Positions 5,314 to 34,507 of a DNA stretch of 64,000 nucleotides are shown one piece after another (the first letter of the stretch is position 1; each line of letters opens with the position of its first letter). This DNA comes from a virus. Lineage: Duplodnaviria > Caudoviricetes. The stretch lies in IMG/VR virus record IMGVR_UViG_3300021256_000095, positions 1-64,000 of that record. The stretch is one strand, 5' to 3'. The notes beneath the pieces were generated by a model. It saw nothing but the letters and a program-made list of their open reading frames with translations. It was not told the origin of the DNA and made no database searches. The position numbers and the translations under genes were made by a program.

Positions 5314-5404
5314 ATACTCCTACTTATTATTTTGGATTCGTCTAGACTCACCCCTTATATACAAGGTTACCATATAACTTTCGGAGTGTCCTTGTCGGAC
5401 AAAA

Positions 5405-15568: not shown

Positions 15569-15703
15569 CTCGCGCCACCTCTCATTTCATCTCATTTTTT
15601 ATTTTCTATAATTATTATAATAAAATTTTTATTAAAAATCAAATAAGGTTGCGCGCAACGTTGACAAAGAAGAAAAAATTTAGTATAATAAAATTAAAGA
15701 AAA

Positions 15704-16316: not shown

Positions 16317-16328
16317 GGCGTCATGAGG
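16308..16328 (+). repeat. 21-bp repeat, left copy (GAGCTTTGAGGCGTCATGAGG)
   Basis: Exact reverse complement at 34345-34365. Confidence 0.95.
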
Positions 16329-17828: not shown

Positions 17829-18476
17829 TTTTCTTTCCTTTACTTTTTTAAAAATATATATTATAATTAAAGTGAATAAATATAATAAATATAATATTAA
17901 ATATTTTATAAAAAATCAAATCATCTATTTTTGGGAAGCATATGATGCGGGCGCGCGTGCGAGAAGCAAAAAACAACTATCAAACTCCCCTGGACTCCCT
18001 TAAGGCGGCCGCTGCCGCCCTGAGCATTCAAACATTCAAATAACCAGTGCATAAAGCCATATGCGGGCGCTCGTCTAATGCAGCGGTGGACGAGGGTAAA
18101 GCAGGTTTATACAAGGTTAAGGAGGCGGAAACCGCAGGTTTACATAAGATTATTATGGTAAACTTAATAAAAATTAAAATTTTCTGTCAAATTATTAAAA
18201 AAATTAAGCGAAAAGTAGCATTTTTGGGAAAAAATAAGTAAAAAATTGAAAAAAATTTTCAAAATTAATTGACATTTGATGAATTTTATGGTAGAATTGG
18301 CGCTGGACCGGTGGTCCGCGCCCCGATTATACACTTTTTGGGTGTATTTGTCAAGTATTTTATTAAAAAAAGTGCATTTTTTTGCACTTTTTCTTTATCC
18401 GGGCGCAAAAACCGCGCCTTGTCAAGCAAAAAATGCGTCTTTCAGCGCATTTTTTGCTTTTTAGGGGGCAACCGCC

Positions 18477-18860
18477 CTACTTTTTAGGCGGGCGGTGTTT
18501 GGTCAGCTTAAAGGTGTACTCTGCACCCTCATAGCTAAAAGCTATTTCAGTTTCAGTTTTTACCGCCTTTATGTCTGCCCCGATTTCCTCTAAAAGGGTC
18601 TTTACATCAGCGAGCAACCGCCCCTTTACCTCGTCAACCTTGCGCACCTTTTCAGCCTTTTTTCTTGGCTTTGCGCTCTGTTCATAACGTCTTTCCCCTT
18701 TGACGTTCTGCGCCTTTTTGGTTTCCTCAGTTGGTTCAATCTTGCCCTCTTCTTCAAGGATAAGGTCGCAAGCTTCTGTGATACTGATTTCAAGGCTCTC
18801 AACGTACTTATCAATAAGTTCATCAGATACTTCAAAACCTTTGTATTTCATTTTTATCAC
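18477..18860 (-). CDS. hypothetical protein
   Basis: ORF with SD GAGGTG and its own promoter. Confidence 0.7.
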   Translation of the reverse strand: MIKMKYKGFEVSDELIDKYVESLEISITEACDLILEEEGKIEPTEETKKAQNVKGERRYEQSAKPRKKAEKVRKVDEVKGRLLADVKTLLEEIGADIKAVKTETEIAFSYEGAEYTFKLTKHRPPKK

Positions 18861-18925
18861 CTCTCTTGTTTTTCTTTATTATATCATAGGGGCTGGCGGT
18901 TTGTCAACCCCTATTTTATATTTTT

Positions 18926-19618
18926 TTAAGAAAAACATTCTTTCCTCATTGTTTTGTGTTTTGCAAAACAATATTTTAGAATTTCCTTCTCAATTAGTAC
19001 ATCTTCAAGTCCAGTGTGACTTTCAATAAAGTCAAGATTATTTGTGATATATTTATAAATAACCTCGGCTTTTACTTGCGGTCTTGGCGTCTTATGCTTT
19101 GTTAAAAATCCATTTTCAAAACAAAAATTAATATAACTTGGTGTTTTAGCAATTACGTCTTGCGCCATTTTCATAGTATCCCAAATCTCACAACCGCTTG
19201 GTAAAAAGTATCTAAATTTTGACTTTGTAAGCCACCTTTGCGTGTTATTTGTTGCACCATAGTCAAAACGCATATTGTGTGCGCAAACTGTTTTTGTATT
19301 ATACCTTTTCAGCGTTTCCGCAAGGTCTTTTTTAATTGAATACCATGTTGCAACTTTACGCTTACCGCTCTTTATATCCGCATAATATTGCGGTAATTTC
19401 TCCGCATAATAACTTGATTTCATTAATTCTTTTTCATCAAAGAATATATCTCTGTTTATATATGACTTTGTTTCATATACATTACCTTTTTTATCAACAA
19501 CCGCCCAACCTATGTCATATACAAACATATTATAAGGTGTAACTCCATTAAAATCTTTGTCAAGTGGGCAAGTTTCAGTGTCCATAACTACTATATAATG
19601 TTTTCTCTTGTCTATCAA
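18926..19618 (-). CDS. DEDDh 3'-5' exonuclease
   Basis: VMDTET (Exo I), AHNMRFD (Exo II), HTGLEDV (Exo III). Confidence 0.88.
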   Translation of the reverse strand: MIDKRKHYIVVMDTETCPLDKDFNGVTPYNMFVYDIGWAVVDKKGNVYETKSYINRDIFFDEKELMKSSYYAEKLPQYYADIKSGKRKVATWYSIKKDLAETLKRYNTKTVCAHNMRFDYGATNNTQRWLTKSKFRYFLPSGCEIWDTMKMAQDVIAKTPSYINFCFENGFLTKHKTPRPQVKAEVIYKYITNNLDFIESHTGLEDVLIEKEILKYCFAKHKTMRKECFS

Positions 19619-19664
19619 TTTTGTTTACCTCTTTTCTCTTGATGATGTAATCATTATAACATAT

Positions 19665-20126
19665 TTATGCTACGTTGTCAAGTATTTTTTCAAGCTCTGT
19701 TAAAATGTTTTCATTTGCGTTTACGGTTGCGCCCAAATTCCAACCTTTACGCACTTTTTCATTATCATCAAACAATATCTGAAAACCGCCCCTTTTTCTT
19801 GTGCAATTTGCTTTTGTAGTTCCATACTTCACGAGATGTATCTCGTCATATGGAAAACCATATTTTGCAAGCCATTTAAGTTTAGCCTGACGAACCATGT
19901 CATCATATGCTTTTGTACCACCTTTTGCGAGCCACGTTGTAACAACTACACGATAGCCATATGCCTTTAAACTATTGAGTATTTCAGCCATATAATTCAT
20001 ATCATAAAACGGCTTTGCTTCATCATATGGTCTTGTGTTTTCATTCCTTAAATCATTCAGCCAACCCTCTACACCATAAAGATCAGCGATTGTTCCGTCC
20101 ATATCAAATACAAGTGTTCTGTTCAT
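19665..20126 (-). CDS. HAD-family nucleotidase-like phosphatase
   Basis: VFDMDGTIAD, VVTTW and LFDDN motifs. Confidence 0.8.
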   Translation of the reverse strand: MNRTLVFDMDGTIADLYGVEGWLNDLRNENTRPYDEAKPFYDMNYMAEILNSLKAYGYRVVVTTWLAKGGTKAYDDMVRQAKLKWLAKYGFPYDEIHLVKYGTTKANCTRKRGGFQILFDDNEKVRKGWNLGATVNANENILTELEKILDNVA

Positions 20127-20471
20127 ATCTCTTACCTCTTTTCCTTTGTTTTCTTTATTATATCACTTGCGGTTGCTATTGTCAAGCACTTTTTTAATTA
20201 TTTTTTTATGCTTGCTTAGTGCGCTTACCGCTCCTTACATTATCTATTATAACAGATTGATTATAAAATGCAATATACAAAATGCACAAAGTTTCAGGAG
20301 AAAATTTGTGCAAAATTTTTTAAAATTTTACTTGACAAAAAAGCTCGACGGGTGTATAATGGAAATTTGGCGCGAACTCGACTTCCTCCGGGCGAGTTCG
20401 CGCCAAGGAAAATAGCCATAGTTTTCACTATGACTATAAGGAAAGGAGGTTTCAATTTTCATCTCGTTGAG

Positions 20472-20550
20472 TGGAGCGAACGGGACTCGAACCCGTAGCA
20501 TAGGTAATAATTTGTCACCCACATGGTCTGTTCCAGTTAGTCATCGCCCC
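20472..20550 (-). ncRNA. tRNA-like RNA with an Ala-type acceptor (G3-U70, A73) and an atypical anticodon arm
   Basis: GGGGCGA/TCGCTCC-A acceptor; ACGGG-TTCGAGT-CCCGT T-arm; extended arm TGGGTGA-CAAATTA-TTACCTA. Confidence 0.75.
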
Positions 20551-20601
20551 TTATTTATTTATGACCCCCTACCCCATTGGATAGGGGGAGTAACCTTTGT
20601 A

Positions 20602-20928
20602 CTACTCGGCAATCACGAACCTTGTAGGGTTCTTGCCCTTAGCTTCTATCTTTGTAACTGTCTTATCAGCTACAAGTGGACGCATAAGCGCAGAAGCTTT
20701 CTGGCAAGAGATACCAATCTCTGTACCAATTTCAGTAGCCGTTCTTGCGTGACCATCTGCAAGTATTGCAAGAATATCAGCCTTGATACCCTCATTAGCT
20801 ACCTGAACCTTAGTTGGCTTTGAGGACTTTCTATCAAGAGAAGCAATCATCTTCTCAGCGACCTCTCTCATTTCATCTGTGCAACCCTCAAGTTCCATTG
20901 TCTTTGTAAGAAATTCTCTCTTTGTCAT
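20602..20928 (-). CDS. coiled-coil + winged-helix protein, paralog 3
   Basis: MTKREF...LDRKSSKPTK.Q..NEGIKA...TA.EI...KGKNP....IAE. Confidence 0.8.
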   Translation of the reverse strand: MTKREFLTKTMELEGCTDEMREVAEKMIASLDRKSSKPTKVQVANEGIKADILAILADGHARTATEIGTEIGISCQKASALMRPLVADKTVTKIEAKGKNPTRFVIAE

Positions 20929-21870
20929 AATACATCTACCTCTTTCTTTTTTAATATTTTTTATTTGTTATCTTATGTACTTATTATAACTCTTTTTTAT
21001 TTAGTTGTCAAGTATTTTTTTTATTTTTTTGAGATTGTTTGTAATGGGTTTTCTCTATTAACCGCCTTGCAAGGTTTAAATTTCAGTCAGAGGAGTTTTC
21101 CGCACTCACTATTTAAACGCTCTCTTTATCTTTTGTAAGTTCATTATATCATAATGGAAAAGGATTGTCAAGACCTTTTTTCAAATTTTTTTCAACCTTG
21201 TGTGTACCTTGACTTCCTTACGCACTTGACAGGGTTTTGTTGCAAGTTTTACCAGCCTTTTCCTATTTGATAATTAAATTATAACAAAATTTTTTAGTAT
21301 TTGCAAGTACAAGATTTTTAGGAAATTTTGTGCATTTTGCACAATAAAAAAAGCTTGACAAAAATGGCGCGGCGGGTGTATAATATTAATTTGGCGCTCA
21401 CTCGGGGTTCGCGCCCGGTCGCCAAAAAAGAGGACTTTAATAGTCCTCTTCTACAAAATCTTTTACTTCTATTTTATCTATAATCCCTTCAACAGCAAGC
21501 CACCTTGCAAATTCTAACACTTCGGGTTCATCTGTAATCCAGTTTATTTCTTTATCAGCATACTGTTTTAAACGTAAATCTTTAATAGTTACAATTTTAG
21601 TATCCATTTGTTATACCTCTCTTTCGTTTTCCTTTATTGTATCATAGGGTTGATTATTTGTCAACTATTTTTATGAATAAAATTCATTAATTTTTCTTTT
21701 GATTTAACCATTTCATTTATTATACATTGAGGGGTTTGTTCTTGTATGCATTGTGCAATATAGTCATTTAGCATAGTAATAATTATTAGTTCATCTATTG
21801 TATTAAAATCATCTTCCATTTTATTATATTTTTCTCCTTTTCTTTATTATACTACATTTGCGGTTGTTTG

Positions 21871-22128
21871 TCAACCGCAATATAGTAAAATTATAAAATA
21901 AATATTCAGTGCTACACTTGATAAGTGCATTACAAGCCCATTTATGTGGCGGTCAACCGCAAGGTCTTTTATAACACCGATAAACGCAATCGCAAGTCCG
22001 AACCATGCAATAGACAATCCATAAATCATAATGAGAATTACATTGATTACAGTTATTAAGCACCGCAAGTCATTGTATTCAAATCTGTATCTTCCTTCGA
22101 TTTTAAAAAACTCTTTTACTTTTGTCAT
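21871..22128 (-). CDS. small membrane protein
   Basis: Multiple hydrophobic segments. Confidence 0.65.
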   Translation of the reverse strand: MTKVKEFFKIEGRYRFEYNDLRCLITVINVILIMIYGLSIAWFGLAIAFIGVIKDLAVDRHINGLVMHLSSVALNIYFIILLYCG

Positions 22129-23669
22129 AGGCTTTTCCTCTCTTTCTATTTGATACTTATTAAACGTAAATAGTTGTCTTTTGCTCTTTGTTTGCTTAAC
22201 TGTCTTGTGTTTTTAGGTAAATGCTTTCTTTTTCTTTCGTTATTATTAAAACTGTTATAATACTTTATTAAAAACATTTTCCTTAATTTATGTATTTTCA
22301 TTTTTGAACTCATTTTTATTTCCTCTCTTTCGTTTTTCTTTATTATATCACAGGGTTGACTAATTGTCAACCCTAAACATTTTTTACTACAAGGACAGTT
22401 TCCTGAAGTCCGTCATTACTTGCAATATACATTTCAAATTGAGTATCCCATACTCTACCGAGTTTGATGAATGTAACCTGTGGGCTATTATCCATCATAT
22501 CAAAGAAGAGTTTTGCGCTCATGAATGTGTTGTTATTTGCTTTAAGCCAATTCTTAATTTCCCATGTGTACATACGCTTTACCTCTCTTTCTTCTTTTCT
22601 TGAATTAAGTATATCAAAAAAAGAAGTAAAAATCAAGCCGGAATTTTGCACAAATTTTTAGGATAAAATTTGTGCAAAATTTTTTAAAATTTTGCTTGAC
22701 AAAAATCTTGAGCCGTGGTATAATTGAATTTTGGCACAACAGCGCGCGCTGTTGTGCCATGAAAAAAGTCGGTTAAGGAAACTTAACCGACCAACCGCAT
22801 CAACTATTATTTTATTCTTCCCAATGTTTTATAAGTTCTAAAGAGCCGTCCTTTTGTATTTCATAATGTTCATATCCAAATTTTTTATACTTGACTGGAA
22901 TTTTATTACACACAAGAATAGGTTCTCTATCTACTTCACATTCCCACGGGTCACTAAGTGGTGTACATTTTACAATTAAATATTTCATTTTATTTACCTC
23001 TCTTCCTTTTGATAAATCTATTATACTATAATTTCACTTTTGTGTCAAGTGCTTTTCTATAAAAATTATCTAATTCTACAAAAGTCATAGCGCCATTCAA
23101 ATAACCTTTTACCATAATTCTAAAATACATAGATATTTTATGATCTTTACCAAATCTATTTTCTATCTCTTGCGTCATCCATTTAGTTAAACGTACTCTT
23201 GAATTTTCCATTTTTACTACCCCTTTCTTTTGATAAACAATCTCTCATAGTTTGTTTCATTTCTTTATATTTTTTTAAGTAGTAATGTTTATTCATACGT
23301 TCTTTACTTAATTTATAATATACTTTTGCACTCTTATAATAAACGTAAAACATTAGATATTTATTTGTCATTTTTATTACCCCTTTCCTTTTTCTTTATT
23401 ATAACAAATTTTTATTTTCTTGTCAACTATTTTTGCAATAACTACAGTCAATATTTTATTAACTTTTAAAGCAAAGTTAGAGGAAACGAACAAATTTCCG
23501 CCGGCTTAAAAAATTGTTGACAAAAACTTGTAAGTGTAGTATAATTAAGAAAGCGGCTCTGTTGCGGAAGGGACGCCCGCAACAGAGCCGACAAAAAGTT
23601 GAGCCAAAGGCGGTAAACCTTTGGCTCATTTAGGAAAGGAGGATTTTATATCAAACCTTATCTGTATTA

Positions 23670-23742
23670 GTAGGGTAAAGCGGAATCGAACCGCTTATCA
23701 GCTCGCAACTTCTTGGAGATTTTACCTTTAAACTATACCCTA
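23670..23742 (-). ncRNA. tRNA-like RNA (Trp-like D arm) without a canonical anticodon arm
   Basis: TAGGGTA/TACCCTA acceptor; AAGCGG-TTCGATT-CCGCTT T-arm; middle segment CTCCAAGAAGTTGCGAG. Confidence 0.7.
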
Positions 23743-23784
23743 ACCCCCACCCCAACCTTGCGGAGTGGGGGAGTAACTCACAGA

Positions 23785-24099
23785 TTACTCTGCGATGTGG
23801 TAGGTTGCAGGGTTCTTGCCCTTACCCTCTACCTTTACGACACTCTCAATCTGCTTGAGGAGTGCGGCTACCTTTGCGGTTGAGTAACCAACCTCGTCAG
23901 CGATTTCCCTTGCGGTCATCGGCTCTGCGCCCATAACCTCAACAATTTTCGCCTTGATACCCTCGTTCTCAATCTGCGCCTTTGTCGGCTTTGAGGACTT
24001 TCTATCAAGACTTGCAATAGCCTTTGCCATTACCTCTCTCTCTTCTGAATCCTCTGCAAACATTTCCATAGCCTTTGTGAAAACTTCTCTCTTTGTCAT
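23785..24099 (-). CDS. coiled-coil + winged-helix protein, paralog 4
   Basis: Close protein and nucleotide similarity to the ORF at 20602. Confidence 0.8.
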   Translation of the reverse strand: MTKREVFTKAMEMFAEDSEEREVMAKAIASLDRKSSKPTKAQIENEGIKAKIVEVMGAEPMTAREIADEVGYSTAKVAALLKQIESVVKVEGKGKNPATYHIAE

Positions 24100-24896
24100 A
24101 GTACATCTACCTCTTTCTTTTTATTTTTTATTTTGTAAGTTAATTATAACAAATCTTTTTTATTTTGTCAATAGTTTTTTTATTTTTTTTCGGTTGCGCA
24201 ACCTTTCGTTTCGGTTTTGTTTTCGTATAACCTGTGGAAGAATATCCTACCCTGAAGTGCGCCAGTCTGCCATTTTTTTAGTTTCGTATTGAACTCAGAG
24301 TGAACACTGGACTGCTCTAAAGTCAACCAATCTCACGAGTTTGGTAGCCGATGTATGACACAAAACCATACATTGAAGAGTTTTTATGACTTTGCTTTGT
24401 CATTTTCTATATTTATTATATCATAGATTTTCTAATCTGTCAAGCATTTTTTTAAAATCTTTTTTGATTTTATTTCTTGAGGGGTGTTTAGCATCTTTAT
24501 GCACCCTCGTACCTGTATTCATATTGTACCATACTCTTTGACTTTTGTCAAGTAGTTTTTTCTTATTTTTTTCAACCATTTTTTTATCCTCTTTCCATTT
24601 GGTATTTATATTATAACAAATTTTTATTTATTTGTCAACTATTTTTTTATTTATTCTGTGCTTTTTCGGTTTAGCACAGAGAACCGTGGGAGGTTCTTGC
24701 CTCACTTTCTGATATAATTATAGCAAAATTTTATTTGTATGTCAAGCACAAATTTTGGGAAAAATTTTGGTTATTTTGCACAAAAATTTTTACTTGACAA
24801 AAACTTGGCGGTATGGTATAATGGTAAATTTGGCGCTCGCACGGGGAAGGGCACCCGCGCTCGCGCCATCAAAAAATGAGGGCGGATATCCGCCCT

Positions 24897-25097
24897 CTAC
24901 TCTCCAAAAATCTTATCCTGACAAGTAGGACACATACCTGAGACAATGCACTCTCTGTCTGTTGCGGACAGATAAGGGAAAGCATTCTGCACAAGTGCGC
25001 CACTCTCATATTTTTCAAGGTCAGTCAGATTAACTTCAACTGCCCAACTTTCATTACAAAATACACAATTTCCGATAAGATTAACTCTCACTCTCAT
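24897..25097 (-). CDS. small zinc-binding protein
   Basis: CVFC...CPTC. Confidence 0.65.
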   Translation of the reverse strand: MRVRVNLIGNCVFCNESWAVEVNLTDLEKYESGALVQNAFPYLSATDRECIVSGMCPTCQDKIFGE

Positions 25098-25167
25098 TCA
25101 CCTTTTCCTTTCTTTCTTTTGATACTCTTATTATATCAGAGGGGTTGAGGTTTGTCAACCCCTTTTT

Positions 25168-25494
25168 TCAAATTTTTTCAAGTATCTCGTCTGCGGTCAA
25201 CCAACCTACTACTTCACAAGAGGTTTCCCATTTTGATACTATAGTTCCTGCAATTTCAAGGAGACCACTTTTACAACCATAGCTTCCACCGTGGATTATA
25301 GCATCCCACCTATTATTTTTTTCATCACGGACTAATACCTGACGACCGTCATAAAGGTCACGTATAGTAATATTAAATCCACCCTTATTTATAAGACCAA
25401 CCACAAGCTTATTAAGTTCTTCATAATTATACATAATCATTACCTCTCTTTCATTTGTTGTATTAAGTATATCACATAAGAATAATATTGTCAA
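25168..25494 (-). CDS. hypothetical protein
   Basis: Real start probably MYNYE after SD GAGG. Confidence 0.6.
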   Translation of the reverse strand: MTILFLCDILNTTNEREVMIMYNYEELNKLVVGLINKGGFNITIRDLYDGRQVLVRDEKNNRWDAIIHGGSYGCKSGLLEIAGTIVSKWETSCEVVGWLTADEILEKI

Positions 25495-25793
25495 GCACTT
25501 TTTTGCGGGCGCCCGGTTAAGGTGGCGGAGGGGTCGAGTAAAGACCCCTTAACCGCCCAACCGCTACTTAACCTTAGCGAGTTCCCTTATTTTTGCCACC
25601 CTCTTTGGATTATACTTGTAATCATCTTTTACAATAGGGATAAGCTCTATCTTGTAAATTTTACCCTCAATATCTTTAAGAACATCAGTTCTCATATTTC
25701 CTGCTACATACGTTACTTTTCTCATACTCGTTTCCTCTCTTTCTTTATCTTTTGTAAGTTTATTATAACATATTTTATTCGGGGTGTCAAGTA

Positions 25794-26042
25794 TTAAATA
25801 TCATATTTTTTCCCAAATTCCATAGCAAATTTTGCAATTTCGTAACTATGAAAAGGAAGATTTATTCTACTTGCACATTCAAGAAGCCACGGAAAAACTT
25901 GGTCTATTTCATCACACCAGTTAGATTTTTTAAAGTCTGAAAAGAAGAATCTGCAATCAGGATGTTTGGTACTGCCGCCCCATACCTCAAAAATAGTTTC
26001 TCTCGTTTTAAGATTTGAATATAAAACACAATGTCCTATCAT
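25794..26042 (-). CDS. hypothetical protein
   Basis: SD GAGG and its own promoter. Confidence 0.6.
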   Translation of the reverse strand: MIGHCVLYSNLKTRETIFEVWGGSTKHPDCRFFFSDFKKSNWCDEIDQVFPWLLECASRINLPFHSYEIAKFAMEFGKKYDI

Positions 26043-26208
26043 ATTGTTTACCTCTCTTTCACTTTCTATTGTTATTATATCAGATTATAATAGGGGTGTC
26101 AAGTATTTTTTTTGAAAAAATGCCCGGTCAAAAAATGCGGACTTGCTTTTTAAACTATGCAAGTCCGCCAAAGGAAAGAAAGGCATATCAAATTATATCT
26201 ACTACGAA

Positions 26209-26281
<73 letters not shown>

Positions 26282-26479
26282 CTATTTATCACCATTTTGT
26301 GCGGTTTGGTGATTTTCTCTTGCGTTCCTCTCTGAGTTCGTCATACCAATCAATGAACCCAGCAATTCCGCAACCTATAACTACTATACAATTAACCATT
26401 CCAAGAATTATTATACTATTCATACCTTTTACCTCTCTTTCATTTTCTATATATATTATAGCAAAAAATTTTTATTTTG

Positions 26480-26665
26480 TCAACAATTATTTTTTGCACC
26501 ACAATTTTCACAATAATTTGGATATATACCTTGTGTTGACATCATTGACCTGCGGTAATTACAAAATGGACATTCAATTTGCCATGTATATGATTGACAA
26601 TCAATATCAATCCATTTCCCCTCTAATCTTGAGTTTTCAGTTTTATTAATTGTTATTCTTTCCAT
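26480..26665 (-). CDS. small zinc-ribbon protein
   Basis: CPFC...CENCGA. Confidence 0.65.
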   Translation of the reverse strand: MERITINKTENSRLEGKWIDIDCQSYTWQIECPFCNYRRSMMSTQGIYPNYCENCGAKNNC

Positions 26666-26818
26666 TCTTTTGTCCTCTCTTTCACTTTCTATATATATTA
26701 TAACATATAGGATTTAATTTGTCAACTATTTTTTTCAAATTTTTCAAACAAACAATCAAATAACCGATTGATTTCACACACGCGGATGTATCCGTCCCGC
26801 CCTCTATCAACTAACTTG

Positions 26819-27280
26819 CTAAGCCATAAGCTTAGCAAGTGTCTTTTCATTTGTAAAGGTTGCACCCTCAAACTTTATTTGATATGCAATTCCATTATCC
26901 TCTACGTCACCGCCCTTGGTGAATGGTACATTATCCTTTTCCCAAACCTGACCGAACATCTGTTCAGTTACAAGTTTTTCAAAAATCTCACCTTTATTAT
27001 ATTTTGAATTTGCAACCATGCTATCAAACAGCTCTTTTGAACATATAGCGGTTGCTTCATATGTCATCAGCATAGTTTTCTGTGACTTGTTAGGTTTAAA
27101 TCTGAGACTGAATCCTTGACCTCTTGAAGCTCTATCGAGTGAGCATACATAAGGCATAACTGAAGAATCAGTTATAACAGCCATAATGACACCATTAAAA
27201 GCAAATCCGAAGATATACTCATGGGTATAGCTGATTTCATTGTAGCGGTTGATTAAGTTGTTGAAAATTGTTGTATTCAT
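26819..27280 (-). CDS. restriction-endonuclease-fold (PD-(D/E)XK-like) protein
   Basis: NKGEIFEK...GDV....YQIK. Confidence 0.5.
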   Translation of the reverse strand: MNTTIFNNLINRYNEISYTHEYIFGFAFNGVIMAVITDSSVMPYVCSLDRASRGQGFSLRFKPNKSQKTMLMTYEATAICSKELFDSMVANSKYNKGEIFEKLVTEQMFGQVWEKDNVPFTKGGDVEDNGIAYQIKFEGATFTNEKTLAKLMA

Positions 27281-27533
27281 ATTGGTTTACCTCTCTTCCC
27301 TTACCTCTTGTATATATGATACTACTTTTGAAGCTGGATTGCAATAGTTTTTTAAAAAAATTTTGTACAAAGATTTAAGACTGTTTTTGTGCATTTTGCT
27401 ACAAATTGCACACAATTTATTTTGTGCAAAACAGAGAAATTTTGGGATCATTTTTGTGCATTTTTTTCAAAAAAAATGCTTGACAAAACATCTGGCGGCG
27501 TGGTATAATTAAATTTGGCGTTTTTACAAACGT

Positions 27534-27678
27534 GAACGTATGTTCATATGTACATATGAATATATACACATATGTGTATATACACATATGAATGACCGCT
27601 CATATGACAACGGTTCCGGGTGTGTCCTCGAACATCTGTTTGGCGCGCAACCGGTTGCGCAAAGTCGAACACCTGTTC
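27534..27678. promoter_or_regulatory. three Gram-positive LexA/SOS-box matches downstream of a consensus promoter
   Basis: GAAC-N4-GTTY at 27534, 27630 and 27667; a fourth at 33679. Confidence 0.65.
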
Positions 27679-28280
27679 AAACAAGTATAGCGGCTGGCTG
27701 GCGATTCGCACAGCCGCCAGCCAGCCGCCCAACGCAAAAAAGCCAGTTGTTCGGCTTTCGCTTACTGACTCTGGCTTTTTTGCTGTCGGTGGGAGGGAAC
27801 TTGCCGCCCGACCTGCTCGCACTCTCTGGCGCCCCTTGGTTCCCGAGCTTTGGCGCCCCTTTCGGTACTCTATTCAGCTATTTAATTCGGTGGTGCTCTC
27901 ATACTCCTTACCTCACTTTCTGAATTAAGTATAACATACTCGGTTCAGTTTGTCAACTATTTTTTTAAAATTTTTTTGAGTGACCGCCAAGTCCGAACCT
28001 CTTTCAGCTTCATCAGCTTACTCATCACTCTGAGGGCTTTGTCCCTACTTATTTCACTGCTGTTAGCAAGTGCCCCATGTGGGTTACACGGCTGAAGGCT
28101 CTGTCGTTAATTAAAGGTCTTACACCTCGACTTGTGAGGATTTCTCGCCTACCTTACTGCTTGGAGCGGGTTGTACGCCGTGGGTTTAGGTTTTTCCTTA
28201 CCTTATGTATTAAGTATAGCACTTAATTTTTAATTTGTCAACTACTTTTTTAATTTTTTTTGATTAGGTAAATGCTTCCT

Positions 28281-28565
28281 TTAGATTTCAAAGGAAGCAT
28301 AGCCGAGCTGAACATCAAAGCCTTCGAAGTGGTAGATCACATAGAAGTCACCTTCGTAAGAAAGACATTCTGCTTCGAGCATTTCACGGAAAGCACCAAC
28401 CGCTTCTTCATCGTCATACTCACGCTCTACTTCAGACCAATCATCATCGAAACCTTCAAAGTCCTGTAAATCTACGTGAAGCACTTCATCAGAGAGCCAC
28501 ATTTCAGCATCAGCACCGAGACCTTCAACAACCGCTATCATCATTTCTAAAGACATCATTTTCAT
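28281..28565 (-). CDS. highly acidic small protein
   Basis: About 27 D/E versus about 3 K/R by manual count. Confidence 0.7.
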   Translation of the reverse strand: MKMMSLEMMIAVVEGLGADAEMWLSDEVLHVDLQDFEGFDDDWSEVEREYDDEEAVGAFREMLEAECLSYEGDFYVIYHFEGFDVQLGYASFEI

Positions 28566-28658
28566 TTCCTCTCTTTCGTTTGTTTCTATAACTATTATAG
28601 CGTATCCGGCTTGACTTGTCAAGCACTTTTTTAAATTTTTTTGATTTTTTCAGAGGGT

Positions 28659-28766
28659 CTACTCTGAGTAGACCCAGCCCCCGATTTCAGAGGCGATGGC
28701 TTCCGCCTCAACCTCGTCGGTCGTTCTGTAGAAGAACTGATTGTTCATGTCGATTACGTAGTACAT
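28659..28766 (-). CDS. 35-aa acidic peptide (paralog of the ORF at 33228)
   Basis: MYYVIDMNNQFFYRTTDEVEAEAIASEIGGWVYSE; SD AGGAGG and its own promoter. Confidence 0.7.
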   Translation of the reverse strand: MYYVIDMNNQFFYRTTDEVEAEAIASEIGGWVYSE

Positions 28767-28983
28767 ACTGTGTACCTCCTTCCTTTATCTTGACTTAATT
28801 ATAGCACTTTAAACCGGTGTTGTCAACCCTTTTGTGAAAAATTTTTCAAAAAAATTTTTTTAATTTTCCTCTTGACAAAACTCATGGCGGTGTGGTATAA
28901 TATTTTCGCCCGCCAGGCGGTCGCTGAGGTCAGAGGTCGGTTGCTGAAAAACTGCGGTCTCTGATTTCAGAGACCGCATACTT

Positions 28984-29235
28984 TTATCTGTAATAGCTAC
29001 TTAATTCAATTATCTTATGACATTTATCACATCTATAAATGTAGCTCTTTGTACTGGCAGTGCCATTACGAACTAACTGACTATATTCATAATGACCGCC
29101 ACACTCTGTACAGACACCGTTATTATAAATTTTTTCATCGTGCTTCTTTTCAAGATAGCAAACACCTACTAAAATAATTATTAATACCGCCATTCCGATA
29201 ATAACCTTTACCATATTAAAAAACATTTCCTTCAT
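28984..29235 (-). CDS. TM + zinc-ribbon protein
   Basis: N-terminal TM helix; CTECGG...CDKC. Confidence 0.65.
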   Translation of the reverse strand: MKEMFFNMVKVIIGMAVLIIILVGVCYLEKKHDEKIYNNGVCTECGGHYEYSQLVRNGTASTKSYIYRCDKCHKIIELSSYYR

Positions 29236-30147
29236 AAGAATATACCTCTCTTTCCTTTACTATGATTTAAGTATAGCACACTGGTGGGCGCTTGTCAAGC
29301 AAAATATTGCACAAAATTACAGGAAAATTTTTGTGCAGTTTGCACATAAAAAAGTGCTTGACAAACAGCCTGAGATCTGCTCTAACAAGTACAGCGGTCT
29401 GCTGGCGATTCGCACAGCCGCCAGCAGACCGCCCAAAGACGAGGAAGTTATTCTTCCTCATCCATCACTGGCTTAGCTATCATCACCGCAAAAGCTAACC
29501 GCAGAATGTCTATATTGGTTATTGTCTTTGCCATCCTTGAGAACTCTACCGTATATTCATCTTCAAAACCTCTTCTTCTTATCATCTCGTCAAGCATTTC
29601 TTCTCTATTCAGCATTTTTGTTTTCCTCTCTTTCCTTTTTGTAAGTTTATTATATCATAAAGAAGTTTACTTGTCAACCCTTTATTTTTATTTTTCTAAA
29701 TCTTTTATTTGCCTGTTTCTTGGTTGCAACTTTTTCTACCCACCAAAGACCGCCAAAAGTACACTGTCCTACAAATTTTGTTCTTGCCATTTTTTTATAA
29801 TCCGCTCTTCCCATATCTTTACCTCTCTTGTTTTTCTTTATTATATCATAAGGGGTTGAGGTTGTCAACCCCTATTTTCTTTTAATTTCAAATTTTTCAG
29901 TAGGAAAATCAAAACTTAATGTTATACAATTTGCATTTGTTTCAGAAATTATAGGCTCTGAATTTACCCAGATATTATAGTTAAGCTCTTTATTTATAAT
30001 TATATCTGCATCCATTGGATAATCTAAAAGTTTTGTAATTAAATCTTTTACTGTCATTTTTTTATCCTCTCTTTAATCTTTTGTAAGTTTATTGTATCAT
30101 ATATTTTTTTATTTGTCAACAACTATTTTTATTTTTCATATATGACC

Positions 30148-30456
30148 TTAGCAATATGCTAAGGTCATATTTGCCCACTTCAGAATTGAAATCTGATTGC
30201 AAGCCCGCCCGATTGTAAGGGCTTCACGCTTGGTATTTACTCGCTTACTCTTATCTATATACCAAACACCATTTGAGAACCATATGCCACAGTTGCCGTC
30301 ATATGCTTTGATTGCCTTCATAGCAACAACCATATCTTCGGTCTCTATGCCTTCGGTGGCAACCTGCCACCCTGACTTGTAGGTTATAACCTTACCATTC
30401 TTAAGGGTAAGCCCGCCGTTGTCCTTTATCTTTTTGAGTGTTCTTATGTTTATCAT
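30148..30456 (-). CDS. hypothetical protein
   Basis: SD GAGG and its own promoter. Confidence 0.7.
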   Translation of the reverse strand: MINIRTLKKIKDNGGLTLKNGKVITYKSGWQVATEGIETEDMVVAMKAIKAYDGNCGIWFSNGVWYIDKSKRVNTKREALTIGRACNQISILKWANMTLAYC

Positions 30457-30671
30457 TTTGTTTTCCTCTCTTTCCTTTACTGTAATTAAAGTATATCATA
30501 CTCAACCGGATTTGTCAACAAAAAAATTGCACAAAAATAGGATTTTTTATTGTATAAAATTTTTGAAAAAAGTGCTTGACAAAATGCGTATAGCTGTGAT
30601 ATAATATTTTTGGCGTGGCGGCAGCCGCTGCCGAGTATTAAAAAAAGAAAAGGCGTTTCCGCCTTTTCTTT

Positions 30672-30800
30672 TTATGGTGTAGGAATGAACTTTACAACCT
30701 TTCCGTGCTGACGCTCTTCCCATTTTTTCTCTGAAGCGCTCAGACCACGATACCAACACTGATAACCATCTTCAAAAATATACCAACCTGTAGACTTCAT
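30672..30800 (-). CDS. 42-aa peptide
   Basis: MKSTGWYIFEDGYQCWYRGLSASEKKWEERQHGKVVKFIPTP; between its own promoter and a terminator. Confidence 0.6.
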   Translation of the reverse strand: MKSTGWYIFEDGYQCWYRGLSASEKKWEERQHGKVVKFIPTP

Positions 30801-32731
30801 AATTTTTTACCCTTTACCTTTCGGTTTCCTTTCCTTTTGTTATATTTATAATATCATACTTTTTTTAGTTTGTCAACAACTATTTTTTATTTTTTTATGG
30901 GAGTGAGAAGCTCTAATCAAAGAGTTTCTCACTTGTCTGATAAAGCTTATCAGTGAAAATGTGGTCATATACATAACGTGGATACCAAACACTGATAACG
31001 TCCTTCTTGCGTCCTCTTGCAAGTTCCTTTCCGTCCTTATCTCTTAAAACCCAAACTCTCCAATTCTTATTCATACCTTTGTACCTTTCAACCTTTCCGG
31101 TCGTCCTTTCCTTTATTGTGATTTTATTATATCATGGGCTTGACCATCTGTCAAGCCCTTTTTATTAAATTTTTAAGATTTTTTGTAAGCTCTCTGTCTT
31201 TCAAATGAGCAACCGGCGCTTGGCTCGTCCGCCCACCCTATTCGATTGTGTTGCTTATCTCTTATCTTGATTAAATTATATCAAACAAGACCGGTTTTGT
31301 CAATACTTTTTTATAAAAAATTTTGCACAAATTAAGGATAAAAATTTATATAAAATTTGTGCAAATTTCCACTTGACAAAACCCGTTGCCATGTGATATA
31401 ATTTTTGGCGCTGAAACGTATGTAACGAAAAAAGAGCCTTTCGGCTCTTTTTTACACTGCTGTGAGTAAACCTGAATAAACTCTTAACCACATATCCTGC
31501 ATATCTGTATCATGTCCTATTGCTTCCCAAACTTTTGTGTCAAGTTCTTCAATTTCAAATTCCATTTCATCTTCGTCTACCTCTGAAAGAGACTCTGCAA
31601 AAAATGCTAATGCTTCGATATAATCCTTTTTTAAGTTCTTCTTGATTTCTTTCTTTGTCATATTTTTGTACCTTTTCCGTTTCCGGTTTTCCTTTCCTTT
31701 ACTGTAATTAAAGTATATCATCTTTAATACATTTTGTCAATAGTTTTTTTAAAATTTTTTTATTTATTTTTCTTGTCATTTTGCACAAATTTTGTGATCA
31801 AAATTTGTGCAATTTTTTATTATTTTTTACTTGACAAATTACACTGCCATGTGATATAATTTTTTGGCGGTCAGGCGGTCGGTAACAAAAGAAAAGGCTG
31901 ATTTACTCAGCCTTTACTTTGTAGGTAAAAAGTGTTATTTCTTTGTAGTTACCTTTTATTTTGTTGTACTCAGTGACTGCCTCGGCTCTATCTGTAAAAG
32001 TTGCGATTTCTTCACCCTCTGCCCAAATTTCGTAAATATTCATCATGTTTTTGTCCTCCTTTTGTTTTTCTGATTTAATTATATCATTGTTTTTCTTACT
32101 TGTCAACTACTTTTTTATTTTTTTATTATTATTTTGAAGCCCGCATTTTCAAGTCTTTTTATATCAATCTCGCTTGCTTTTGTTTTATCAATTACATAAC
32201 CATCTATCATTATTATTGCCATTTTTTTTGTCCTCTTTTCCTTTTTCCTTTATTATACTATTTTCATTTTGTTTTGTCAACTATTTTTTAACTTTTTATC
32301 TTGAAGCTTTAAGCTTCAAGATAAAAGTTTTCTTCTTTATTCATTATTATTACAAAGTCAAGATTGAAAAGCTTCTTTTCTTTTGCGTAAAAATTAAATG
32401 TGTTCATTGCTTCTTTGTAGTTTCTTGTTTCAATGACTTCCTTATCTGCTAATAAAACTTCGTACATAATTTTCACCTTTTCAGCTTTCGCTGTCCTTTC
32501 CTTTATCTTGATTTAAGTATATCACCAACAACCGGTTTTGTCAATACTTTTTTTAAAAATTTTTTATTTATTTTTGCACAAATTAAGTGATAAAAATTTG
32601 TACAAATTTTTTGCAAATTCTACTTGACAAAATGTGCTTTCATGTGTTATAATATTTTTGGCTTTTTTACGTTGTTTTCGATTAAATTAAAAAACTTGAA
32701 GCCTTTTGCTTCAAGTTTTTTATTTATTTTA

Positions 32732-32935
32732 TTATCTTTTATTTATCCATTCTGTGATAATCACTTTATTTCTTTTGTTTCTATCATCAGCTTCTTTTGT
32801 TTCCCATGTCCATGTATCTATCATTTTAAGCATGAAATCAACTTTTTCAATTTCTTCAAGTGCTTTATTAAGTTTTTCAATTGTATCATTGTTTGTATAC
32901 TCTTTTCCTCTAATCGTGATTGTACTTTCGTTCAT
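32732..32935 (-). CDS. hypothetical protein
   Basis: SD AGGT and its own promoter. Confidence 0.6.
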   Translation of the reverse strand: MNESTITIRGKEYTNNDTIEKLNKALEEIEKVDFMLKMIDTWTWETKEADDRNKRNKVIITEWINKR

Positions 32936-33227
32936 AGTTTTTACCTTTCCTTTCCTTTTGTTTGTTTTCCTTTTTCTTGAGTTAAGTATAACAAATTAAA
33001 CCAGTTTTGTCAATACTTTTTTAAAATATTTTTTATTGTTATTTTTCACAAAAATAGGAAAAAAATTTGTTTATTTTTTTGCAAAAAAACACTTGACAAA
33101 CTATGCTGTGCTGTGGTATAATTAAATTTGGAGTTTTTTCGAGTGGTGCGGCTGGTCGCTCTTCGTGGCGTTTCAAGGCGCGGTTCGCGCACATCAAAAA
33201 AAGAAGAGCTTTTCAGCTCTTCTTTTT

Positions 33228-33356
33228 GTCTACCAAACGAAGTCCTCGTCTGTCATGTAGAACCCGCCGATTTCCTCAGCTATGAGTCTTGCGCCTTCCT
33301 CGTCATTCTTTACTGTTGTGAATATTCTGTTGTTTGTGTCGATGATGTAGTATGTC
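33228..33356 (-). CDS. 42-aa acidic peptide (paralog of the ORF at 28659)
   Basis: MTYYIIDTNNRIFTTVKNDEEGARLIAEEIGGFYMTDEDFVW. Confidence 0.65.
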
Positions 33357-33708
33357 ATATTTTTTTACCTTAGCCTCTTGGCTTCCTTTCCTTTACTGTG
33401 ATTAAAGTATATCACAAATCAATTTATTTGTCAATAAAAATTTTGCACAAAAATAGAAAAATTTTTTGTGTAAAATTTTTTAAAATTTTTACTTGACAAA
33501 ATATCTTCTTTATGATACAATTAATCTAAATTTGAATAGAGATCATTTTTGATTAATTATAATTAAATGGTAGCGGCTACAAGTTCAGCTTACCTAACAA
33601 AAGTTAGGCACAGTAAACTCAAGTTAGTTAAAACTAATTTGGGTTAGACCCGGCTAACCATATGGGCTGTGAAAAATCGAACAGGTGTTCAAAAAAATGC
33701 GCACCCCA

Positions 33709-33846: not shown

Positions 33847-34350
33847 TTAAACGTATTTCTTACTTAGTTCTTTGTCCTTCTTTTTTTCATAATTAATCTT
33901 CTCCATATCTGGATCTTCAATACTCCCTTCCAATCCCTCATCTTCAATAACTAAAATATCAAATTGAGTTTCTCCAAAAACATAAAATAATAATTCATAA
34001 ATTTCATTCCATTCAAACTCTTCAAAATCTTTCTCTGCAAAAAGTAATTTACAAGGTCGAAATGTATTTCTTATATTTATTAATCCTTCAAGTAATCTAT
34101 TTTTAGTAACAGTTTTCTGATAACCACACACAATCAAAAGAATTAAATTTCTCAAAAGAAAATGCGCAAACCCATGTCCGTTCCATCCATCGAGCGCTTG
34201 CGGATTCACCTTATATTTTTCTTTTATGCGCGGACCGACCCCTCTTTCCATGCTACACTTATTATCACTTAAATAAACTAAAATCCTATCATCATAATCA
34301 AATATATTTCCTTCTCTTTTATTATAAACCATGCGCGAACGCGGCCTCAT
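33847..34350 (-). CDS. diverged macro-domain (Poa1p/TARG1-like) protein
   Basis: EGNIF...MERGVGPRIKEKY...EWNEIYELLFYVFGETQFDILV resembles the small-macrodomain layout; the active-site motif is degenerate. Confidence 0.45.
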   Translation of the reverse strand: MRPRSRMVYNKREGNIFDYDDRILVYLSDNKCSMERGVGPRIKEKYKVNPQALDGWNGHGFAHFLLRNLILLIVCGYQKTVTKNRLLEGLINIRNTFRPCKLLFAEKDFEEFEWNEIYELLFYVFGETQFDILVIEDEGLEGSIEDPDMEKINYEKKKDKELSKKYV

Positions 34351-34365
34351 GACGCCTCAAAGCTC
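34345..34365 (-). repeat. 21-bp repeat, right (inverted) copy
   Basis: CCTCATGACGCCTCAAAGCTC is the reverse complement of 16308-16328. Confidence 0.95.
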
Positions 34366-34507
34366 GCCTGCCGCATCTCCTTTCTAAATATTTTCTAATA
34401 TAATTATATATTATTTTTTCTTTTTTGTCAAATTTGCCCAAAAAGACCTTGACAAAAGAAAAATTTTTTAGTATAATGAATATATAAAATAAGAAAGGAG
34501 ATTTCCA

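What the first reader, a model, noticed from the sequence alone, without database searches (positions are those of the whole stretch)
18269..33530. About 15 counter-oriented promoter - GC hairpin - terminator cassettes punctuate the early region
Seen: + strand TTGACA at 18269, 20332, 21355, 22696, 23517, 24794, 27480, 28872, 29358, 30576, 31373, 31831, 32624, 33093 and 33493. Nearly all have TATAAT 17-18 bp on (often extended TG), opposite to every local gene and with no ORF behind them. At the expected +1 most read TTTGGCG. Several form sequence-divergent, structure-conserved 25-40 nt hairpins (GGCGCGAACTCG...CGAGTTCGCGCC; GGCACAACAGCG..CGCTGTTGTGCC; GGCTCTGTTGCG...CGCAACAGAGCC), then an A-run and the terminator of the oncoming gene. 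Inference: a dispersed array of tiny-RNA genes or RNA-polymerase sinks/antisense switches. I know no named feature class that matches this repeated architecture.
Basis: partly seen in the sequence, partly recalled or inferred. Interest (0 to 1): 0.82.

Follow-up and report, generated by a model that had tools for sequence, protein, structure and literature searches.

The report
Backward promoter-hairpin units, phage early region
In the early-gene region of an uncultured rumen phage, about fifteen perfect host-type promoters point backwards against all the genes, have no gene behind them and often start their RNA with a tight GC hairpin; dozens of related phages share this undescribed unit, which probably fences off early transcription units, though no RNA has yet been observed.

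Summary
All 15 + strand TTGACA sites exist. Twelve have a perfect TATAAT at 17-18 bp, two are one base off, and one (29358) has no -10. All local genes (about 37 small ORFs, nearly each with its own consensus promoter) lie on the - strand, and no ORF follows any + promoter.

About half of the window's units start with a significant GC palindrome; the right-hand ones run straight into a bidirectional terminator.

Each unit is one half of a conserved two-way module: sense promoter, operator-like inverted repeat (TTGCACAAATTTnGGGA ... TTTGTGCAA), then the backward promoter and its palindrome.

Across 36 related viral loci, 76% of minority-orientation promoters have a strong hairpin in their first 62 nt, against 8% of gene-direction promoters.

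The palindrome is not a terminator in either direction. It starts at the predicted +1, keeps pairing through compensatory changes, and is equally stable on both strands.

Related phages have gained and lost gene units by recombining at these units.

Best reading (about 0.5): cis-acting counter-transcripts, hairpin-capped at the 5' end, that bound or attenuate early transcription units, and also act as PeSL-like shuffling junctions. No RNA data could be obtained.

The scan has reported this family before on other genomes.

The parts
18269..18297 (+). Backward promoter 1 (TTGACA-17-TAGAAT), face-to-face with sense promoter 18354-18326
18299..18322 (.). GC palindrome between the two converging promoters (z -2.0). 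The bidirectional terminator 18367-18392 lies beyond it.
20279..20316 (.). Operator-like inverted repeat (TGCACAAAG..AGGAG..TTTGTGCA) upstream of promoter 2
20332..20360 (+). Backward promoter 2 (12/12 consensus)
20367..20406 (+). 5' GC palindrome of unit 2 (15 bp, -28 kcal/mol, z -5.3). The sense-only terminator 20412-20437 follows.
21355..21384 (+). Backward promoter 3 (18-nt spacer); operator 21324-21348
21390..21426 (+). Imperfect 5' hairpin of unit 3 (z -2.2); terminator hairpin 21428-21450 follows
22642..22680 (.). Operator-like inverted repeat, 14-nt arms, upstream of promoter 4
22696..22724 (+). Backward promoter 4 (12/12, extended TG)
22732..22759 (+). 5' GC palindrome of unit 4 (12 bp, z -5.0); sense terminator 22767-22792 follows
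23517..23545 (+). Backward promoter 5; divergent sense promoter 23426-23398
23554..23590 (+). 5' GC palindrome of unit 5 (14 bp, loop AAGGGACGC, z -6.4); sense terminator 23600-23628 follows
24794..24822 (+). Backward promoter 6; operator 24743-24787; divergent sense promoter 24745-24717
24831..24868 (+). 5' hairpin of unit 6 (z -3.0), identical in L009 and in two rumen metagenome contigs. Sense terminator 24878-24897 follows. Homology with relatives breaks between hairpin and terminator.
27480..27509 (+). Backward promoter 7, preceded by three TTGTGCA half-sites (27383-27464). It leads into a gene-free, repeat-rich stretch that runs to the bidirectional terminator 27737-27785.
27690..27728 (+). 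GC palindrome with no promoter of its own. It is a paralogue of 29394-29432: same 11-nt loop, three compensatory double changes.
28872..28901 (+). Backward promoter 8, with no stable 5' hairpin; bidirectional terminator 28953-28978; divergent sense promoter 28826-28798
29358..29386 (+). Unit 9: -35 and operator (29304-29341) are intact, but the -10 is degenerate (TCTAAC)
29394..29432 (+). GC palindrome of unit 9 (14 bp, -30.5 kcal/mol, z -7.3)
30576..30605 (+). Backward promoter 10; weak hairpin 30611-30633; bidirectional terminator 30642-30673; divergent sense promoter 30518-30490
31373..31402 (+). Backward promoter 11; operator 31320-31367; no hairpin; bidirectional terminator 31428-31453; divergent sense promoter 31303-31275
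31403..31860 (.). 458-bp gene unit (terminator, gene 31661..31452, sense promoter 31740, operator, backward promoter 12). It is flanked by two backward promoters and absent from relative L009, whose single unit is a chimera of units 11 and 12.
31831..31860 (+). Backward promoter 12; operator 31778-31815; terminator hairpin 31893-31915
32624..32653 (+). Backward promoter 13; operator 32571-32608; bidirectional terminator 32688-32722; divergent sense promoter 32544-32516
33093..33122 (+). Backward promoter 14; bidirectional terminator 33196-33228; divergent sense promoter 33013-32985
33493..33521 (+). Backward promoter 15 (TACAAT); operator 33440-33477; divergent sense promoter 33434-33406; no GC hairpin
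20602..20928 (-). Winged-helix protein (108 aa), paralogue of 23785-24099. Its family is found in 19 unit-bearing loci, often in 2-3 copies. It is a candidate binder of the operator-like repeat; this is inferred only.
23785..24099 (-). Winged-helix protein (104 aa), second paralogue

Best explanation
These are counter-oriented, non-coding transcription units that mark the ends of early transcription units. I read each one as follows.

1. Host sigma-A RNA polymerase binds a perfect promoter with an extended -10 that points against the early genes (inferred).
2. The RNA begins, within 0-2 nt, with a fully paired GC hairpin. This is the geometry of a 5'-terminal stabiliser against 5'-end-dependent RNases (inferred).
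3. The polymerase then meets the oncoming unit's terminator or, in some relatives, the oncoming promoter.
4. The unit therefore works in cis as a boundary (inferred). Head-on transcription reinforces the stop of the very strong sense units. The long-lived antisense RNA also pairs with the 3' end (or 5' end) and with read-through tails of the sense mRNAs, which exposes them to double-strand RNase.
5. An operator-like inverted repeat, shared with the divergent sense promoter, suggests that a DNA-binding protein sets the timing. The conserved winged-helix early protein is a candidate (inferred).
6. Because the promoter/operator part is repeated about 15 times, it also serves as a site of homologous recombination that adds, removes and reorders gene units.

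Shown here: the sequence anatomy, its conservation, the contrast with gene-direction promoters, the compensatory change in one hairpin pair, and the recombination chimera. Not shown: any + strand RNA, any effect on the sense genes, any protein binding.
For: Promoters and coding:
- The promoters are 12/12 consensus, and no ORF follows them.

Family-wide contrast, in 36 related viral loci:
- Minority-orientation promoters (n=90): 76% have dG <= -14 kcal/mol in the first 62 nt and 16% are followed by an ORF start.
- Gene-direction promoters (n=464): 8% and 70%.
- The backward promoters are a distinct class, with a GC-richer spacer (0.48 against 0.35) and an 18-nt spacer in a third against under 1%. 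They also carry a conserved upstream motif.

The hairpin:
- It starts 3-8 nt after the -10 (median 6-7), that is, at the predicted +1.
- An A-run follows the palindrome on both strands, so it is not an intrinsic terminator in either direction.
- Structure is selected, not sequence. The stems are perfect Watson-Crick yet unrelated between units. Paralogues 27690 and 29394 differ by three double changes. The orthologous position in L009 carries a different perfect palindrome.
- The transcribed part is the least conserved part of the module, as expected for a cis-acting or sequence-independent role.

Position:
- The units sit at sense terminators or face sense promoters.
- + strand terminator-like hairpins are three-fold enriched in a region with no + strand genes. 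The scan found 15 of its 24 hits there, against about 10 expected for both strands together.

Recombination:
- L009's unit is a chimera of window units 11 and 12, with the crossover inside the shared -10 region.
- Homology with L009 and L258 breaks at the +1, or between hairpin and terminator.

Established knowledge (my own): 5'-terminal stem-loops with at most about 4 unpaired nt stabilise RNA in E. coli and B. subtilis (Emory 1992; Sharp and Bechhofer 2005). Lambda OOP RNA destabilises cII mRNA through 3'-end pairing and RNase III.
Against:
- Hairpin stability shows no strand preference: -21.6 against -21.4 kcal/mol, 36 against 34.
- Among mismatches in the perfect stems there are 0 G:T against 5 A:C. 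Nothing therefore proves that the + RNA, rather than the DNA palindrome or the sense-strand RNA, is the selected form.
- About half of the window's units lack the hairpin.
- One hairpin has no promoter (27690) and one unit has lost its -10 (29358), so the hairpin can persist alone.
- It is unclear why units that each carry their own consensus promoter would need insulation from one another.
- Hairpin loops are purine-rich on the + strand family-wide (27 against 5). A purely sequence-independent boundary role does not explain this.
Confidence: 0.5

Rival explanations
1. Trans-acting decoy or sponge RNAs. The roughly 15 strong promoters flood the cell with very stable 5'-paired hairpin RNAs. Their large purine-rich loops (GGA or SD-like) soak up a host RNA-binding factor, such as a CsrA-like protein, the 30S subunit, an RNase or an RNA-sensing defence protein, as part of host takeover.
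For: - Consensus promoters and a 5'-terminal hairpin predict abundant, stable RNA.
- Loops are 9-17 nt and purine-rich on the + strand in 27 of 32 informative hairpins. GGA/AGG/GAA/AAG occur 47 times against 6 for their complements, and this runs against the pyrimidine-rich background of that strand.
- The early region also holds other non-coding RNA genes: tRNA-Lys and two tRNA-like elements.
Against: - No loop or stem sequence is conserved between units or between phages.
- Within this window the loops are not consistently purine-rich; one reads CUUCCUCC.
- Only 10 of 69 hairpin units have a + strand terminator that would release a discrete small RNA.
- No Rfam family matches.
Confidence: 0.17
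2. A nut/put-like antitermination switch. The promoter-proximal hairpin, alone or with an early phage protein, makes the polymerase resistant to terminators. Later in infection the + strand transcripts run through the early region, silencing it by head-on and antisense transcription, and on towards the + strand late genes.
For: - All backward promoters point towards the late cluster that starts at 34.5 kb.
- The order strong promoter, immediate hairpin, terminator resembles lambda pL-nutL-tL1 and the HK022 put sites (my own knowledge).
- The G-rich promoter spacer is conserved.
Against: - There is no conserved boxA/boxB-like sequence, and the loops differ within one phage.
- No N, Q or other known antiterminator family was found among the early proteins scanned against Pfam or PHROGs.
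- The phage has its own sigma-like factor at the head of the late cluster.
- Half of the window's units lack the hairpin.
Confidence: 0.1
3. A role at the DNA or polymerase-occupancy level. The units act as tight RNA-polymerase binding sites (sinks or roadblocks with poor escape into a GC-rich initial region), or as topological or structural marks. The palindrome would matter as DNA, and the RNA would be a by-product.
For: - The palindromes are perfect Watson-Crick and equally stable on both strands, with no G:U bias towards the + RNA.
- Consensus -35, extended -10, 18-nt spacers and a GC-rich initial transcribed region are the features associated with tight binding and slow promoter escape (my own knowledge of the T5 N25/N25anti work).
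- A hairpin persists without a promoter at 27690.
- Runs of alternating purine and pyrimidine are mildly enriched in the stems: 5.6 against 4.8 +/- 0.24.
Against: - The loops carry strand-specific composition.
- A GC-rich initial region would not need to be a palindrome.
- The exact placement of the stem at +1 fits an RNA 5' end better.
Confidence: 0.13
4. The + promoters are not used in vivo. The GC hairpins are only back-up terminators for the minus-strand genes, and the repeated sequence is kept merely because it spreads by recombination.
For: - The units are recombination junctions.
- One GC hairpin (23590..23554) was scored as terminator-like on the - strand.
Against: - Both hexamers and the TG are kept perfect in nearly every unit across phages whose anchor protein is only 48-74% identical.
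- On the - strand the palindromes are followed by AAA(T)TT, not by a U-tract.
- Only 1 of about 8 was scored as a terminator.
Confidence: 0.05

Closest known systems
PeSL (promoter-early stem-loop) cassettes of T4-type phages (Arbiol et al. 2010, PMC2839356; Comeau et al. 2014, PMC4122927)
   Same: - Short composite promoter plus stem-loop units, repeated between small, variable early genes.
- Related phages differ by indels and swaps whose junctions lie in the units. Here, L009's unit is a chimera of window units 11 and 12.
   Different: - A PeSL is a terminator followed by an early promoter, both in the direction of the genes. Here the promoter points against the genes and comes before the stem-loop.
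- Here the stem-loop is not a terminator.
- The unit is paired with a divergent sense promoter and an operator-like repeat.
- The hosts are Firmicutes-type, not hosts of T4-like phages.
Lambda OOP RNA and P22 sar RNA (single cis-antisense RNAs of phage early regions; my own knowledge)
   Same: - A short non-coding transcript from a host-type promoter that converges on an early gene.
- It overlaps that gene's 3' end (OOP/cII) or faces its promoter (sar/Pant).
- The face-to-face pairs, such as 18269/18354 here, recall Psar/Pant.
   Different: - Those are single, sequence-specific regulators of one gene. Here there are 15 units per genome with unrelated transcribed sequences.
- Most units lack a terminator of their own.
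- Here the RNAs are unobserved.
5'-terminal stem-loop RNA stabilisers (E. coli ompA leader; B. subtilis ermC, aprE and SP82 leaders; my own knowledge)
   Same: A stable stem that starts within a few nucleotides of the 5' end.
   Different: Known examples protect coding mRNAs. Here nothing is encoded downstream.
3'-overlapping type I toxin-antitoxin pairs of Firmicutes (bsrG/SR4, txpA/RatA, yonT/SR6)
   Same: A convergent small RNA from a strong promoter that overlaps the terminator region of a small gene.
   Different: - The facing genes are mostly hydrophilic, not membrane peptides.
- The only Rfam hint (SR6_antitoxin) scores 27 bits against a threshold of 55.

Membership tests
PeSL cassettes (T4-type phages) | Composite unit of a terminator stem-loop followed by an early promoter, in the direction of the genes | tested here: not met
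   The promoter points against the genes and precedes the stem-loop. The stem-loop has no U-tract in either direction.
PeSL cassettes (T4-type phages) | Repeated between small variable genes, with junctions of indels and replacements between related phages lying in the units | tested here: met
   A 458-bp gene unit (31403-31860) is flanked by two backward promoters. L009 has one chimeric unit. Homology breaks at the +1, or between hairpin and terminator.
Intrinsic (Rho-independent) terminators | GC-rich hairpin immediately followed by a U-tract on the transcribed strand | tested here: not met
   The palindromes are flanked T-run 5' and A-run 3' on both strands. Only 23590..23554 was scored as terminator-like.
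Cis-antisense small RNAs (OOP/sar type) | Promoter convergent with a gene, and a transcript that overlaps that gene's mRNA | tested here: met
   By geometry only: each unit faces a sense terminator or a sense promoter.
Cis-antisense small RNAs (OOP/sar type) | A discrete short RNA with its own terminator, observed in vivo | tested here: inconclusive
   A + strand terminator is present in 5-6 of 15 window units and in 10 of 69 family-wide. No RNA data are available.
Type I toxin-antitoxin (3'-overlap type) | The target gene encodes a small hydrophobic toxic peptide | tested here: not met
   Only 1 of the 13 facing genes has a hydrophobic 19-residue window.
RNA anti-CRISPR (Racr, solitary repeat units) | The RNA mimics the host's CRISPR repeat, so copies share one repeat-like sequence | tested here: not met
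   The hairpins share no sequence. Stems are 8-16 bp with 4-17 nt loops. The host and its repeats are unknown, so no direct comparison was possible.
nut/put antitermination sites | A conserved boxA/boxB or put sequence, and a cognate antiterminator (N) or a defined two-stem fold | tested here: not met
   No conserved loop or box exists among the units. No N or Q family hit appeared among the early proteins scanned. Function is not testable here.
Any Rfam family | Covariance-model score at or above the family's gathering threshold | tested here: not met
   At gathering thresholds only tRNAs and a group I intron are found. At E <= 1 nothing meaningful lies on the units.

The most novel reading that the evidence does not exclude
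The backward units are an RNA arm of host takeover. About 15 consensus promoters would flood the cell with ultra-stable, 5'-paired hairpin RNAs. Their large purine-rich (GGA or SD-like) loops would act in trans as decoys for a host RNA-binding regulator, an RNase or an RNA-sensing defence protein. This would be a multi-copy, sequence-diverse, structure-defined class of phage decoy RNA.
Probability: 0.15. Interest if true: 0.85.

Novelty: new variant of a known kind. Interest (0 to 1): 0.64.

Why it matters
A whole lineage of large rumen and gut phages of Firmicutes devotes one of every three or four of its strongest promoters to transcribing nothing but a hairpin, against its own genes.

If these units are boundary or attenuator elements, they are a compact natural design for insulating very strong transcription units. 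They would also be a Gram-positive counterpart of the T4 PeSL gene-shuffling junctions, with an added antisense layer.

If the RNAs act in trans, they would be a new class of phage decoy RNA.

The question is cheap to settle. The promoters are canonical sigma-A sites, so in vitro transcription and B. subtilis reporters can test it without the unknown host.

Tried and rejected
Searches that gave nothing:
No transcript data.
- Cultured relatives: megablast and blastn of the early region and of one unit against 50,697 phage records gave nothing. The distant relatives Phass-1 and Enterococcus phage EF1 lack the units.
- A genome contigs pattern scan returned mostly chance hits. Only three MAG-binned phage contigs (L165, L169, L224) carry promoter-dense regions, so the host is not identified.
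- A metagenome scan with one exact hairpin found two metagenome contigs but carries no transcript information.

Ideas rejected:
- DnaA-box reading of the upstream repeat. The conserved core is TGCACAAA(T)TT plus GGGA at a fixed distance from the -35, and many copies do not fit TTWTNCACA.
- Type I toxin-antitoxin reading.
- Terminator reading of the GC palindrome.

Tests that were inconclusive or weak:
- Strand test by folding energy and by G:T against A:C mismatches.
- The fold search of the winged-helix protein gave only generic winged-helix matches (ArsR/SmtB, MarR, Z-alpha) at E about 0.004-0.03. This supports DNA binding in general, not any specific family.
- Z-DNA-prone alternation in the stems is only mildly enriched, and the test does not control for dinucleotide content.
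- PHROG and Pfam scans of the early proteins returned almost nothing.

Full report
**What the window is.** The window is the first 64 kb of a 74.8-kb IMG/VR viral contig, estimated 57% complete.
- It has 12 tRNA genes and a group I intron.
- A + strand late cluster starts at 34.5 kb. It holds a sigma-like factor, a portal and a 2,834-aa protein.
- The portal is 30-40% identical to those of Phass-1 and the Enterococcus EF1/VRE9 phages, which are large siphovirus-type phages of Firmicutes (PMC10607447).
- One hairpin occurs verbatim in two metagenome contigs. I take them to be rumen samples from their accession prefixes; this was not checked.
- No cultured phage matches the early region.

**The early region.** Between 18.4 and 34.4 kb, all about 37 RBS-preceded ORFs (35-230 aa) are on the - strand.
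- Nearly every ORF has its own perfect or near-perfect TTGACA-17-TATAAT promoter. There are about 45 of these on the - strand.
- Almost all the proteins are ORFans.
- The exceptions are a HAD-type nucleotidase, a protein of phrog_20187 and two winged-helix paralogues. These are the early proteins most conserved among related loci.

**Observation check.** All 15 + strand TTGACA sites exist.
- Twelve carry a perfect TATAAT at 17 or 18 nt, two are one base off, and 29358 has lost its -10.
- In the whole record the exact pattern occurs 15 times forward and 29 times reverse, against 0 and 0 for the reversed control.
- No coding frame follows any of them.
- Measured against shuffles, a 5' hairpin is strong at 20332, 22696, 23517 and 29358 (z -5 to -7).
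- It is moderate at 18269, 21355 and 24794.
- It is absent or insignificant at the other eight (33493 was judged from the fold and the scan).
- The right-hand units (30576-33093) run directly into bidirectional terminators instead.

Each backward promoter is one half of a conserved module of about 200 bp.
- A sense promoter fires leftwards. It is often the variant with a TATACT -10 and a CCGGTT spacer.
- About 20 nt from its -35 lies TTGCACAAATTTnGGGA. Then, 5-15 nt further, comes its inverted partner TTTGTGCAA, followed 12-16 nt later by the backward TTGACAAA.
- The motif is essentially confined to these modules.
- The GGGA sits at a fixed 37 nt or so from the backward -35, whereas the right half-site shifts. 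I read this as a protein-binding site rather than a DnaA box. The binder is not identified.
- A winged-helix early protein is a candidate. Its family is present in 19 unit-bearing loci, often in two or three copies, and it models as a confident winged helix with pLDDT 89.5.

**Conservation.** I anchored on the sigma-like gene and on the operator-plus-promoter pattern. The same layout turned up in dozens of IMG/VR contigs and in three MAG-binned phage contigs.

In 36 loci with at least six consensus promoters:

| Promoter orientation | n | dG <= -14 kcal/mol in first 62 nt | Followed by RBS plus ORF |
|---|---|---|---|
| Minority (backward) | 90 | 76% | 16% |
| Majority (gene direction) | 464 | 8% | 70% |

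- The backward class also has a GC-richer, G-rich spacer, an 18-nt spacer in a third of cases (against under 1%) and an invariant TATAAT.
- Clean hairpins have 8-16 perfect Watson-Crick pairs and 4-17 nt loops. They begin 5-10 nt after the -10, which is at or within two bases of the expected start.
- Ascertainment caveat: the loci were picked by promoter and operator sequence, not by hairpins.

**What the palindrome is and is not.**
- It is flanked by a T-run 5' and an A-run 3' on both strands. These extend the stem and leave no U-tract, so it is not an intrinsic terminator in either direction.
- Its sequence is free but its pairing is kept. The paralogues 27690-27728 and 29394-29432 share an 11-nt loop and differ by three double, pair-preserving changes.
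- At the orthologous position, L009 carries a different perfect palindrome inside 72%-identical flanks.
- Folding energy is the same on both strands, and G:T mismatches are not favoured over A:C. The stems therefore do not say which strand, or whether RNA or DNA, is selected.
- The loops do carry strand information family-wide: they are purine-rich on the backward-promoter strand in 27 cases against 5. The window's own loops, however, are mixed.
- The hairpin can outlive its promoter, as at 27690 and 29358.

**Downstream context.** Of 69 distinct hairpin units:
- 23 abut a sense-only terminator;
- 10 abut a terminator that also works on the + strand;
- 9 face an oncoming sense promoter, so that both RNAs start in the palindrome (in the window, 18269/18354);
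- 27 have nothing that my strict scan detects.

A discrete tiny RNA is therefore the exception. In most units the transcript would continue, antisense, into the neighbour.

**Recombination.** The early regions of the window, L009, L010, L011 and L258 are mosaics whose blocks are reordered.
- L009's unit at 7031 equals window unit 31373 upstream of the -10 and window unit 31831 downstream of it, with the crossover in the shared CCATGTGATATAATTTTT.
- The 458-bp gene unit 31403-31860 is therefore an indel between two backward promoters.
- Other homology blocks end at the +1, or between the hairpin and the terminator.
- This is the behaviour described for T4-type PeSL cassettes (PMC2839356, PMC4122927).

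**Mechanism.** I commit, at about 0.5, to cis-acting counter-transcription units.
- Host polymerase fires backwards.
- The RNA is capped by a fully paired 5' hairpin, which is the geometry of a 5' stabiliser.
- The act of transcription, together with the stable antisense RNA, enforces and sharpens the end of the convergent early unit.
- An operator-binding protein times the process.
- Everything beyond the anatomy is inference.

**Rivals.** These are trans-acting decoy RNAs (0.17), a DNA-level or polymerase-sink role (0.13), a nut/put-like antitermination switch (0.10), and unused promoters with back-up terminators (0.05).

**Novelty.**
- Rfam holds nothing for these units.
- Three literature searches found no description.
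- The closest named kinds are PeSL cassettes and single cis-antisense RNAs such as lambda OOP and P22 sar. The units fail the defining orientation and terminator features of a PeSL but share its shuffling behaviour.
- Earlier follow-ups of this scan, on other genomes of the same phage lineage, reached the same description.
- What I add: the divergent-promoter and operator module, the family-wide statistics, the strand tests, the compensatory pair, the explicit chimera and a candidate regulator.

Noticed in passing
window 20472-20550 (-) and 23671-23741 (-): Two tRNA-like elements score 27 bits against the Rfam tRNA model (threshold 29). Each lies just downstream of one of the two winged-helix paralogues and upstream of that unit's terminator. 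ARAGORN does not call them.
   Followed up: partly
window 26209-26281 (-): A bona fide tRNA-Lys(UUU) gene (72 bits) sits alone inside the early region, apart from the 11-gene tRNA cluster at 164-5942. Early tRNA-Lys recalls phage counter-measures against anticodon nucleases.
   Followed up: no
window 27515-27790 (+): The backward promoter at 27480 leads into a gene-free stretch of about 270 nt. It holds CATATG/ACATATGT-type repeats, several hairpins and a bidirectional terminator (27737-27785). The stretch is conserved at 82-84% in L009 and L258. It may be a longer non-coding RNA, convergent with the sense promoters at 27956 and 28241, which also have no ORF behind them.
   Followed up: partly
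window 22352-22374, 28609-28624, 29851-29873, 31134-31160: Several sense promoters have their -35 embedded in a GGGG...CCCC-type hairpin. The hairpin is flanked by an A-tract and a T-rich spacer, which makes it a terminator-in-promoter that reads as a terminator on both strands. These are closer to classical PeSL units than the backward units are.
   Followed up: partly
window 16308-16328 and 34345-34365: A perfect 21-bp inverted repeat brackets the early region. The right copy is the RBS and start of the - strand 167-aa gene (34350..33847). The left copy therefore probably starts an inverted paralogue on the + strand, in the 16-18 kb stretch where GC skew flips.
   Followed up: partly
window 37704-37924 (+): A group I intron (94 bits) lies between the ORFs 36925-37659 and 38019-39038, which are probably two exons of one late gene.
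   Followed up: no
window 36-64 (-), 15661-15689 (+), 34449-34477 (+), 50807-50835 (+); Phass-1 record: A second promoter class has an AAAAATTTTT-type spacer and stands in front of non-early genes. More than 15 near-identical copies occur on one strand of Phass-1 (OQ749652).
   Followed up: no
window 18926-19618 (-) and 19665-20126 (-): The most widely conserved early proteins of this phage lineage are a HAD-type 5'-nucleotidase-like protein (23 loci) and a 230-aa protein of phrog_20187 (19 loci). The latter carries a DTET motif that suggests a DnaQ-like exonuclease. The pair recalls the T5 pre-early dmp and host-DNA-degradation functions.
   Followed up: no
relatives (Phass-1, OQ749652): The nearest named relative belongs to the 'code 15' clade, which reads TAG as glutamine. 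The window's late ORFs, including the 2,834-aa one, are open under the standard code, so this phage does not seem to be recoded.
   Followed up: no
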